Shown in pieces: positions 60,945-62,428 of a DNA stretch of 64,000 nucleotides. Source of the stretch: Escherichia phage vB_EcoM-813R1; the sequence record ON470617.2; one strand, given 5' to 3'. The translations under genes were made by a program, and so were the position numbers. Within the stretch, counting starts at the first letter, position 1. Each line of letters begins with the position of its first letter. The notes under the pieces were generated by a model that saw nothing but the letters and a program-made list of their open reading frames with translations, made no database searches and was not told where the DNA came from.

Positions 60945-61976
60945 CTAATCACCATCTTCCAGCAGGCGCACCATTGCCCCCGTTTCACTATCCAGATTAC
61001 GGATATAGTTCATGACAATATTTACGTTGGTCCAGCCACCAGCTTGCATGATCTCCGGTATTGAAACTCCGGCGCGGGCCATATCTCGCGCGGCTCCGAC
61101 ACGGGCACTGTGTCCAGACCAGGCAAGGTACCTCTGGCCAGAGTCATCCTTAGCCCCGTAAATCAATCGGTGAGTTGCTTCAAAAATCCCTTCCAGGGCG
61201 CGAGTTGATAGCTGGCTGGTGGCAGATGGCGCGGCAACACCATTTTTTCTGACACGGCAAAACAAGTAGTTATTCGGATCATCAGCCACACCAGAGACAG
61301 TAATCCATCGCTCAACCAGTTTAGTTACCCCCAGACTAAGTGCCTTCTCTACACCAGCGGTGCTAACCAGCGTTTTCGTTCTGCCAATATGGATTAACAT
61401 TCTCCCACCGTCAGTACGTGAGATATCTTTAACTCTGATCCTAGAAATTTCGGCTATACGTAACAGGGTGTTATAAGCAATCCCCAGAAATGCCAGATTA
61501 CGTATATCCTGGCAGCGATCGCTATTTTCCATGAGTGAACGAACCTGGTCGAAATCAGTGCGTTCGAACGCCAGCGCCTGTTTTGCACGCTCACCGGCAT
61601 CAACGTTTTCTTTTCGGATCCGTCGCATGACCAGTGAAACAGCATTGCTGTCACTTGGTCGTGGCAGCCCGGACCGACGATGAAGCATATTTAGCTGGCC
61701 CAAATGTTGCTGGATAGTTTTCACTGCCAGACCGCGCGCCTGAAGATATAGAAGATAATCGCGAACATCTTCAGGTTCTGCGGGAAACCACTTCCGGTTA
61801 TTCAACTTGCACCATGCCGCCCACGACCGGCAAACGGACAGAAGCATTTTTCAGGTATGCTCAGAAAACGCCTGGCGATCCCTGAACATGTCCATCAGGT
61901 TCTTGCGAACCTCATCACTCGTTGCATCGACCGGTAATGCAGGCAAATTTTGGTGTACGGTCAGTAAATTGGACAT
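60945..61976 (-). CDS. cre: Cre tyrosine recombinase, carrying an in-frame TGA at codon 42 in this sequence
   Basis: Minus-strand translation from 61976 gives MSNLLTVHQNLPALPVDATSDEVRKNLMDMFRDRQAFSEHT-stop-KMLLSVCRSWAAW... and continues as canonical Cre to ...MVRLLEDGD; stop is top-strand tca at 61851-61853. Confidence 0.9.
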
Positions 61977-62394
61977 TTAACACTCAGATAATGGTTTTAA
62001 GTAAAGTGTACAGGATCGGCTCTGCCTTTACCTGTTTATGGTTCTCGTCATAGAAACGCCAGCGACCGCGCGTGCGTTCTATTTTCTCTTCACCGCGCGA
62101 TAATGACAGTTGACAACTATCACGATCAAACCCTTTTGCCCGCCAGTAACCACGGTTTTTCTCAAGCTCAAGATGAGTGGACACTTTAGCAACTGAATAT
62201 CCCATTTTTCACCTCTGATTGATTGGTGGTGCTAAGTGCGCTACGCGAAATCTGGAGCACTAACACTGCCAACTTTTCACAGATTTTACGTAGCGCAACC
62301 TTGATCAAATGATCAAGTGATCACTATTTGACCTGATAAGGTATTGAACTGTATGGATTTACAGGTAAATTGATCATGTTCAATAACCCTTAAG

Positions 62395-62428
62395 ATAACT
62401 TCGTATAATGTATGCTATACGAAGTTAT
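62395..62428. other. loxP: loxP site (canonical 34 bp)
   Basis: Exact ATAACTTCGTATAATGTATGCTATACGAAGTTAT, about 420 bp upstream of cre. Confidence 0.97.

What the first reader, a model, noticed from the sequence alone, without database searches (positions are those of the whole stretch)
60945..62428. Cre carries a premature TGA at codon 42; loxP is perfectly canonical
loxP matches the 34-bp canonical site exactly, and Cre is recognisable residue by residue, yet the Trp codon in ...SEHTWKMLL... reads TGA. The change falls within a CCTGG pentamer (top strand ttTCAgg where ttCCAgg is expected). If real, the element would lack dimer resolution and cyclisation by Cre; the context makes a basecalling error more likely.
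Basis: partly seen in the sequence, partly recalled or inferred. Interest (0 to 1): 0.5.

Follow-up and report, generated by a model that had tools for sequence, protein, structure and literature searches.

The report
Sequencing-error stop codon in Cre
The stop codon inside the Cre recombinase gene of this P7-like plasmid prophage is written in the sequence, but it is almost certainly one of about 60 long-read sequencing errors in the window, so the finding is ordinary.

Summary
Codon 42 reads TGA (top-strand TCA, 61851-61853) where Trp is expected, and loxP is an exact 34/34 match at 62395-62428. With Trp restored, the protein is 341/343 identical to P1 Cre and all catalytic residues are present.

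The stop is very unlikely to be biological. The whole 64-kb window aligns to plasmid NZ_CP093228.1 with 50 deleted bases, 1 inserted base and 14 window-private substitutions. Of the 51 indel bases, 47 lie in homopolymers of 5 or more bases or in runs touching the Dcm motif CCWGG. Those contexts make up 4% of bases (p ~4e-61). Four of the 14 private substitutions, including 61851, lie inside CCWGG (p 2e-5).

At every site that could be checked, independent references agree with each other and the window is one base short; the Sanger-era P7 genome is one of them. Twenty-five of 56 reference genes are broken in the window, including the c1 repressor twice. No public record tested carries the T. 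Restoring C gives 499 perfect matches.

This is the published error signature of Oxford Nanopore (ONT) consensus sequences in Enterobacteriaceae.

The parts
61851..61853 (-). In-frame TGA at cre codon 42, where relatives have TGG (Trp42). The single differing base is 61851 (top strand T; C in relatives).
   Evidence: It is the only difference from NZ_CP093228.1 anywhere between 60342 and 63194.
61851..61855 (.). Dcm recognition pentamer CCAGG/CCTGG in relatives; the window reads TCAGG. The changed base is the outer C. Dcm methylates the inner C (61852 on the top strand, 61854 on the bottom strand).
   Evidence: read directly from the sequence. Dcm specificity (C5mCWGG) is as stated in PMC11610603.
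61854..61976 (-). cre codons 1-41 (MSNLLTVHQNLPALPVDATSDEVRKNLMDMFRDRQAFSEHT).
   Evidence: Identical to P1 Cre residues 1-41.
60945..61850 (-). cre codons 43-343 plus the TAG stop, in the same frame as codons 1-41. The mechanical ORF restarts at Met44 (61847).
   Evidence: Catalytic residues R173, E176, K201, H289, R292, W315 and Y324 are all present. The only differences from P1 Cre are A175S and S226T.
61984..62205 (-). Intact 73-aa ORF upstream of cre, annotated upf0.2 in P7 and cra in P1.
   Evidence: synteny with AF503408; intact.
62303..62375 (.). cre regulatory region with four Dam GATC sites (62303, 62311, 62319, 62372) and a LexA box, CTGTATGGATTTACAG, at 62349-62364.
   Evidence: The matching features are annotated in P7 AF503408.
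62395..62428 (+). loxP, an exact match to the canonical 34-bp site (13-bp arm, 8-bp spacer, 13-bp arm).
   Evidence: 0 mismatches, unique in the window, 0 of 100 shuffles with a match.
63130..63979 (+). c1 repressor gene, split by two 1-base deletions in A7 runs (after 63194 and 63859). Listed as the nearest example of the same error process.
   Evidence: Identified as C1 by the reference annotation.
59778..60337 (-). ref gene, frameshifted by a 1-base deletion in the G run of CCAGGGG (after 59897). This is another Dcm-adjacent error close to cre.
   Evidence: Annotated as a Ref family protein.

Best explanation
The locus is the ordinary cre-loxP module of a P7-like (P1-family, Punavirus) plasmid prophage of E. 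coli. The TGA at codon 42 is a consensus sequencing error and not a property of the DNA molecule. The window carries the error signature of a long-read, ONT-type assembly of natively methylated enterobacterial DNA without adequate short-read polishing. Homopolymers are called one base short, and bases in or beside the Dcm-methylated motif CCWGG are miscalled or dropped. Here the outer C of CCAGG at 61851 was called T, which turns TGG (Trp42) into TGA on the coding strand. Shown: the context-specific error pattern across the window, the window being the outlier at each site, and the absence of the allele elsewhere. Inferred: the sequencing platform, and that this particular base is an error, since no reads were available. 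In the real plasmid, Cre is expected to be full length (the same protein as WP_047615711.1 in the nearest relatives) and to work on loxP as in P1 and P7.
For: (1): the full 64,000 bases align to NZ_CP093228.1 1..63753 with 28 substitutions, 50 deleted bases and 1 inserted base. Fourteen substitutions are shared with NZ_CP095126.1 and so are true polymorphism; 14 are private to the window.
(2): 47 of 51 indel bases fall in homopolymers of 5 or more bases (34) or in runs touching CCWGG (16). Together those contexts are 4.0% of bases (binomial p ~4e-61).
(3): the deletion rate rises with run length. Deleted bases per number of runs are 9/223 for length 5, 10/68 for length 6, 11/17 for length 7 and 4/6 for length 8.
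(4): 4 of 14 private substitutions lie inside CCWGG, which is 1.24% of bases (p 2e-5). Outside the tail-fibre repeats it is 3 of 7 (p 6e-5), including 61851. Twenty of 158 Dcm sites carry an event.
(5): at every indel site whose flanks could be matched, the two plasmids (isolated in China and Ghana) and the P7 genome AF503408 (matched at 22 sites) all have run length n+1 where the window has n.
(6): 25 of 56 reference CDS are broken in the window, including c1 (twice), ref, res, mod, darB, darA, sit, the tail fibre gene, cin and repL.
(7): the 60-nt probe with T matches 0 of 681 E. coli records and 0 of 687 plasmid records perfectly; the same probe with C matches 499 records perfectly; the T-bearing 31-mer is absent from GTDB representative genomes, IMG/VR and JGI metagenome contigs.
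(8) (PMC6591954): with default ONT models about 70% of consensus errors in an enterobacterial genome were in CCAGG/CCTGG, and homopolymer length errors made up most of the rest.
(9): apart from 61851, cre, cra and loxP are base-for-base identical to the reference.
Against: No reads, quality values or platform metadata were available, so the error status of this one base is statistical and not direct. I did not find the specific substitution (outer C to T, equivalent to the last G of CCTGG to A) listed as a typical Dcm error in the papers read. The other two clean Dcm substitutions in the window are CCAGG to CCGGG, a different change. Real slippage mutations also favour homopolymers, and the plasmid maintenance genes repA, parA and parB are intact, which is also what a decaying but still maintained plasmid would show.
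Confidence: 0.93

Rival explanations
1. The window is error-ridden, but this one base is a real nonsense mutation (W42 to opal). The plasmid would then lack full-length Cre, would lose loxP-mediated dimer resolution and cyclisation, and might make a truncated Cre lacking residues 1-43 by reinitiation at Met44, two codons after the stop.
For: The TGA is present in the sequence. An ATG lies 3 nt downstream of the stop. From established knowledge (not tested here), P1 cre mutants are viable with reduced plasmid stability, so a natural null is not forbidden.
Against: Three of the 7 private substitutions outside repeats lie in CCWGG, against 0.09 expected if substitutions ignored context. That leaves roughly a 3% chance that any one of the three is a real, context-independent change. 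The rest of cre shows no decay. The allele is seen in none of about 690 relatives or in three large contig collections. There is no obvious Shine-Dalgarno sequence before Met44. From my own knowledge of the Cre structure, residues 1-43 include helix A, which makes tetramer contacts, so a truncated protein would probably be inactive.
Confidence: 0.04
2. The whole pattern is real: a cryptic, decaying P7-like plasmid in which 25 genes, cre included, have been inactivated, and only replication and partition are maintained.
For: repA, parA and parB are intact while many phage genes are broken. Defective P1-like plasmids are known to exist (my own knowledge).
Against: There are 51 indels against about 7 private substitutions outside repeats. 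The indels show a 50:1 deletion bias. Most 7- and 8-base runs are shortened by one base, and one 7-base run by two (at 13905). Indels cluster at Dcm motifs. None of this resembles known mutational decay. Real 5mC-driven mutation at Dcm sites is a C-to-T change at the inner C, not a 1-base deletion in the adjoining run. A lineage about 0.01% diverged in substitutions would not have accumulated 25 inactivations. The intact genes can be explained by their content of error-prone sequence contexts.
Confidence: 0.02
3. The change is a 5-methylcytosine deamination hotspot mutation at the Dcm site, or TGA is read as Trp or read through by recoding.
For: The change is a C-to-T transition inside a Dcm motif.
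Against: The mutated base, 61851, is the outer, unmethylated C of CCAGG. Deamination of the methylated inner C would give CTAGG on the top strand, or CCAAG if it occurred on the bottom strand. Neither is seen. The other six Trp codons in cre are all TGG, and the host clade (Escherichia plasmids) uses the standard code, so there is no sign of TGA=Trp recoding.
Confidence: 0.01

Closest known systems
Cre-loxP module of phage P7 (AF503408 / AY751747) and of P7-like E. coli plasmids pEC-16-35-3 (NZ_CP093228.1) and pIso00270_01 (NZ_CP095126.1)
   Same: The gene order matches: ref, c8, cre, upf0.2/cra, LexA box with Dam sites, loxP, coi, c1. DNA identity over 60945-62428 is 99.2% to P7 and 99.9% to the two plasmids. 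loxP is identical. cre differs from NZ_CP093228.1 at one base only.
   Different: The only difference is the T at 61851, which creates TGA at codon 42. In the references the gene is intact and encodes WP_047615711.1.
P1 Cre recombinase (PDB 1NZB, 1CRX, 2CRX and others)
   Same: With Trp42 restored, 341 of 343 residues are identical with no gaps (E 1e-229). The full catalytic set R173/E176/K201/H289/R292/W315/Y324 is present. loxP is the canonical 34-bp site.
   Different: A175S and S226T, which are natural variants also present in the two nearest plasmid relatives, whose cre differs from the window's only at 61851; and the in-frame TGA as written.
ONT consensus errors at Dcm motifs and homopolymers (Wick, Judd & Holt 2019, Genome Biol 20:129, PMC6591954)
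   Same: Errors are concentrated in CCAGG/CCTGG and in homopolymer lengths, in native DNA of an enterobacterial host. The overall difference rate is about 0.1% (65 in 64,000), within the range reported for ONT-only assemblies of that period.
   Different: The platform of the window is inferred, not known. In the window, homopolymer deletions outnumber Dcm errors, whereas the paper found Dcm errors dominant for default models. That would fit partial, methylation-aware polishing, but this is inference.

Membership tests
P1-family Cre-loxP site-specific recombination module | 34-bp loxP: two 13-bp inverted arms around the 8-bp spacer ATGTATGC | tested here: met
   Exact 34/34 match at 62395-62428, unique in the window, 0 of 100 shuffles with a match.
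P1-family Cre-loxP site-specific recombination module | Tyrosine recombinase with the Cre catalytic residues (R173, E176, K201, H289, R292, W315, Y324) and full-length similarity to Cre | tested here: met
   341/343 identity to PDB Cre chains when codon 42 is read as Trp. All seven residues are present.
P1-family Cre-loxP site-specific recombination module | Uninterrupted 343-codon cre reading frame | tested here: not met
   TGA at codon 42 in the sequence as given. This is attributed to sequencing error; it is intact in all relatives inspected.
P1-family Cre-loxP site-specific recombination module | Conserved neighbourhood (ref, c8, cre, cra/upf0.2, loxP, coi, c1) on a P1/P7-type plasmid prophage | tested here: met
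   Colinear with NZ_CP093228.1 over all 64 kb and with the P7 annotation.
P1-family Cre-loxP site-specific recombination module | Recombination activity at loxP | not testable with these tools
   Needs an in vivo or in vitro lox recombination assay.
Long-read (ONT-type) consensus error artefact | Errors enriched in the Dcm motif CCWGG | tested here: met
   Sixteen of 51 indel bases are in runs touching CCWGG, which are 1.4% of bases (p 7e-18). Four of 14 private substitutions are inside CCWGG, which is 1.24% of bases (p 2e-5). Twenty of 158 sites are hit. The error class is defined in PMC6591954.
Long-read (ONT-type) consensus error artefact | Homopolymer length errors that are deletion-biased and rise with run length | tested here: met
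   50 deleted bases against 1 inserted. Deleted bases per number of runs rise from 9/223 at length 5 to 11/17 at length 7 and 4/6 at length 8.
Long-read (ONT-type) consensus error artefact | The query, not the references, is the outlier at each site | tested here: met
   Every reference whose flanks matched has n+1 where the window has n, including P7 at 22 sites. 0 perfect matches to the T probe against 499 to the C probe.
Long-read (ONT-type) consensus error artefact | Read-level evidence: strand-biased miscalls at the site, corrected by accurate reads | not testable with these tools
   No reads or quality values are available for the window.
Dcm 5-methylcytosine deamination hotspot mutation | C-to-T change at the inner (methylated) C of CCWGG | tested here: not met
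   The changed base, 61851, is the outer C of CCAGG (61851-61855). The inner C at 61852 is unchanged.
TGA recoding (TGA=Trp or read-through) | TGA used at other conserved Trp positions, or a host with an alternative code | tested here: not met
   The other six Trp codons of cre are TGG. Relatives are Escherichia, Salmonella and Klebsiella plasmids.

The most novel reading that the evidence does not exclude
The T at 61851 is real. This P7-like plasmid prophage would then be a natural cre-null, or would make only an N-terminally truncated Cre from Met44. It would persist in E. coli without Cre-mediated dimer resolution, relying on its partition and addiction systems or on host recombination.
Probability: 0.04. 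Interest if true: 0.25.

Novelty: not a real feature. Interest (0 to 1): 0.05.

Why it matters
As biology it matters little. Cre-loxP of P1 and P7 is among the best-understood recombination systems, and a single nonsense allele, even if real, would be a routine loss-of-function variant. The practical value is as a warning about this window. About 0.1% of its bases are wrong in a context-specific way, and 25 of 56 genes appear as pseudogenes for that reason. Any other first-stage finding here that rests on a frameshift, a premature stop, a split gene or a degenerate CCWGG or homopolymer site should be discounted unless it survives comparison with NZ_CP093228.1 or NZ_CP095126.1.

Tried and rejected
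(1) I looked for a public record identical to the window, or sharing the TGA. I used megablast of the 1.48-kb region against phages, plasmids and complete E. coli genomes, 60-nt probes, and exact 31-mer scans of GTDB representative genomes, IMG/VR and JGI metagenome contigs. None was found, so the source record and its sequencing method remain unknown.
(2) The first polarisation of indels against P7 used BLAST gap positions. It was uninformative because P7 aligns in the opposite orientation and gaps are placed differently. I replaced it with a flank-anchored run-length comparison.
(3) I searched two further papers (PMC10039527 and PMC8486125) for the exact substitution type at Dcm motifs (CCTGG to CCTGA). 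Neither lists it, so I claim only the error class 'within CCAGG/CCTGG' as defined by PMC6591954.
(4) I considered and rejected 5mC deamination (wrong cytosine) and TGA=Trp recoding (the other Trp codons are TGG).
(5) I considered that the references might be wrong. I rejected this because two independent plasmids and P7 agree with each other, and their genes are intact.
(6) I did not use the capped protein-database, structure-prediction or RNA tools, because the identity of the locus was settled by near-identical annotated relatives and PDB Cre.

Full report
OBSERVATION. The region reads as the first-stage reader described. On the minus strand, an ORF from 61976 encodes MSNLLTVHQNLPALPVDATSDEVRKNLMDMFRDRQAFSEHT and stops at a TGA, whose top-strand complement TCA occupies 61851-61853. 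The same frame then continues as KMLLSVCRSW... to a TAG ending at 60945. The mechanical ORF list therefore shows a 41-aa piece and a 300-aa piece restarting at Met44. The canonical 34-bp loxP is present once, with 0 mismatches, at 62395-62428 on the + strand. No match occurred in 100 shuffles, even with 3 mismatches allowed. With codon 42 read as Trp, the protein aligns without gaps to PDB Cre chains (1NZB, 2CRX and others) at 341 of 343 identical residues, E 1e-229. The two differences are A175S and S226T. R173, E176, K201, H289, R292, W315 and Y324 are all in place.

WHAT THE ELEMENT IS. The 1.48-kb region is 99.2% identical to phage P7 and 97% to P1. About 700 plasmid and E. coli records carry it. 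The best are NZ_CP093228.1 (pEC-16-35-3, China) and NZ_CP095126.1 (pIso00270_01, Ghana), both at 99.9%. Window position 1 coincides with the first base of repA in both records. The whole window is colinear with them. So the window is the first 64 kb of a P7-like, P1-family plasmid prophage. By synteny with the curated P7 record, the neighbourhood is:
- ref, 59778-60337, minus strand
- c8, 60583-60894, minus strand
- cre
- upf0.2/cra, 61984-62205, minus strand
- a LexA box (62349-62364) and four Dam sites
- loxP
- coi, 62810-63019, plus strand
- c1, 63130-63979, plus strand
.

THE DECISIVE COMPARISON. I catalogued every difference between the window and its relatives, not just the one base in cre. 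Against NZ_CP093228.1, all 64,000 bases align with 28 substitutions, 50 deleted bases and one inserted base. Fourteen substitutions are shared with NZ_CP095126.1. Eleven of these form one patch at 18591-18677. These are real polymorphism. The other 14 are private to the window.

The indels are far from random.
- 34 of 51 lie in homopolymers of 5 or more bases, and 16 of 51 lie in runs that touch a CCWGG motif. In all, 47 of 51 lie in one or the other context. Together those contexts are 4.0% of the sequence (binomial p about 4e-61).
- The deletion rate rises steeply with run length. Deleted bases per number of runs are 9/223 for length 5, 10/68 for length 6, 11/17 for length 7 and 4/6 for length 8.
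- Of the 14 private substitutions, 4 are inside CCWGG, which is 1.24% of bases (p 2e-5).
- Outside the tail-fibre repeat block, where alignment is ambiguous, 3 of 7 are inside CCWGG (30010, 36896 and 61851; p 6e-5).
- In all, 20 of 158 Dcm sites carry an event.

A flank-anchored run-length comparison does not depend on gap placement or strand. At every site where flanks could be matched, all references have n+1 bases where the window has n. This includes the P7 genome at 22 sites. The window is therefore the outlier.

GENE-LEVEL CONSEQUENCE. Mapping the 56 annotated CDS of NZ_CP093228.1 onto the window shows 25 of them broken. The c1 repressor is broken by two A7 deletions (after 63194 and 63859). 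The others include ref, res (four indels), mod, darB (five), darA, sit (five), the tail-fibre gene, cin, repL and a TnpB gene. The icd homologue has three deleted bases that happen to restore the frame. Yet the window differs from its relative by only about 7 credible private substitutions in 64 kb. A genuine lineage that is about 0.01% diverged would not have lost 25 genes, nearly all through one-base shortenings of runs. The nearest such events bracket cre: 59601, 59897, 60342, then 61851, then 63194 and 63859. So the local error density is about one per 700 bases.

THE ALLELE ELSEWHERE. A 60-nt probe centred on 61851 found 681 E. coli records and 687 plasmid records. None matched at 100%; the best was 59/60. 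The same probe with C restored matched 499 E. coli-collection records perfectly. The T-bearing 31-mer is absent from GTDB representative genomes, IMG/VR and JGI metagenome contigs. Between 60342 and 63194, the T at 61851 is the only difference from NZ_CP093228.1.

MECHANISM. Wick, Judd and Holt (PMC6591954) showed that ONT basecallers with default models produce consensus errors mostly in CCAGG/CCTGG. In an enterobacterial genome, about 70% of errors fell in these Dcm motifs. Homopolymer length errors made up most of the remainder, and Nanopolish removed only about 70-80% of the Dcm errors. Liu et al. (PMC11610603) showed that modification-induced miscalls are strand-specific and include G-to-A substitutions. 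They also found that newer R10.4.1 models largely handle CCWGG. The window's profile fits an ONT-type assembly of native E. coli DNA from before those improvements, or one that was incompletely polished. It has deletion-biased homopolymer errors, Dcm-centred substitutions and indels, and about 0.1% total difference. The platform is my inference. The pattern itself is shown.

RIVALS.
(a) A real nonsense mutation hidden among artefacts. If real substitutions ignore context, about 0.09 of the 7 private substitutions would fall in CCWGG, but 3 do. So each of the three has roughly a 3% chance of being real, before allowing for purifying selection on cre and for the allele's absence elsewhere.
(b) A truly degraded plasmid. 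The 50:1 deletion bias, the near-saturation of 7- and 8-base runs, the association of indels with Dcm sites and the tiny substitution divergence all argue against it.
(c) 5-methylcytosine deamination. The changed base is the outer C of CCAGG. Dcm methylates the inner C, and its deamination would give CTAGG or CCAAG, not TCAGG.
(d) TGA read as Trp. The other six Trp codons of cre are TGG, and the hosts use the standard code.

If the stop were real, reinitiation at Met44, 3 nt after the stop, could yield Cre lacking residues 1-43. From my own knowledge of the Cre structure, this would remove helix A, which makes tetramer contacts. No clear Shine-Dalgarno sequence precedes the ATG. I did not test this further.

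VERDICT. The underlying biology is the already known P7/P1 cre-loxP module, and the premature stop is not a real feature. The remaining uncertainty exists only because no reads could be examined. Sanger or short-read data across 61851 would settle it. Interest is low. The useful by-product is that every frameshift, split gene or premature stop in this window should be treated as suspect.

Noticed in passing
window 63130-63979 (+): The c1 repressor gene is split across two frames by 1-base deletions in two A7 runs (after 63194 and 63859). This is the same error class as in cre, not a real c1 defect.
   Followed up: yes
window 1-64000: 25 of the 56 CDS annotated in NZ_CP093228.1 are broken in the window, including ref, res, mod, darB, darA, sit, S, cin, repL and TnpB. 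Nearly all are broken by 1-base deletions in homopolymers or beside CCWGG. Any pseudogene call in this window is suspect.
   Followed up: yes
window 1-861 (+): The window starts exactly at the first base of repA, the same rotation as NZ_CP093228.1 and NZ_CP095126.1. This suggests it is the start of a complete plasmid record rotated to repA. No identical public record was found.
   Followed up: partly
window 35388-36595 (-): An IS200/IS605-type TnpB (InsQ) gene sits within the dar-operon region between the odaC-like gene and prt, as in the two nearest plasmids; P7 has no annotated gene at that position. In the window it is frameshifted at a T6 run (after 36404).
   Followed up: no
window 26000-28300 (+): The tail-fibre gene S contains tandem repeats of about 300 bp whose number and phase differ between relatives. 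Seven 'private' substitutions and three indels here may reflect repeat misalignment or collapse and not base errors.
   Followed up: partly
window 18300-18740 (+): The sit region has about 277 bp more than NZ_CP093228.1. It also has an 11-substitution patch (18591-18677) that matches NZ_CP095126.1 instead. This is real mosaicism between close relatives, unlike the error-type differences.
   Followed up: partly
window 4860-4868 (+): There is a complex private change, GGATCTTGGCTCC to GGATCTAA-CTCC, next to a Dam GATC site. It is neither in a homopolymer nor in a Dcm motif. It may be a Dam-associated miscall, but it is unexplained.
   Followed up: no
window 62303-62375: The cre upstream regulatory region is intact. 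It has a LexA box (CTGTATGGATTTACAG, 62349-62364) and four GATC Dam sites, matching the features annotated in P7 AF503408.
   Followed up: yes
window 13900-14118 (-): The icd-like gene carries three deleted bases (two in a C7 run after 13905 and one in a T6 run after 14056). By chance these restore the frame, so it looks intact although the stretch between the two sites (after 13905 and after 14056) is read out of frame and its residues are wrong.
   Followed up: partly
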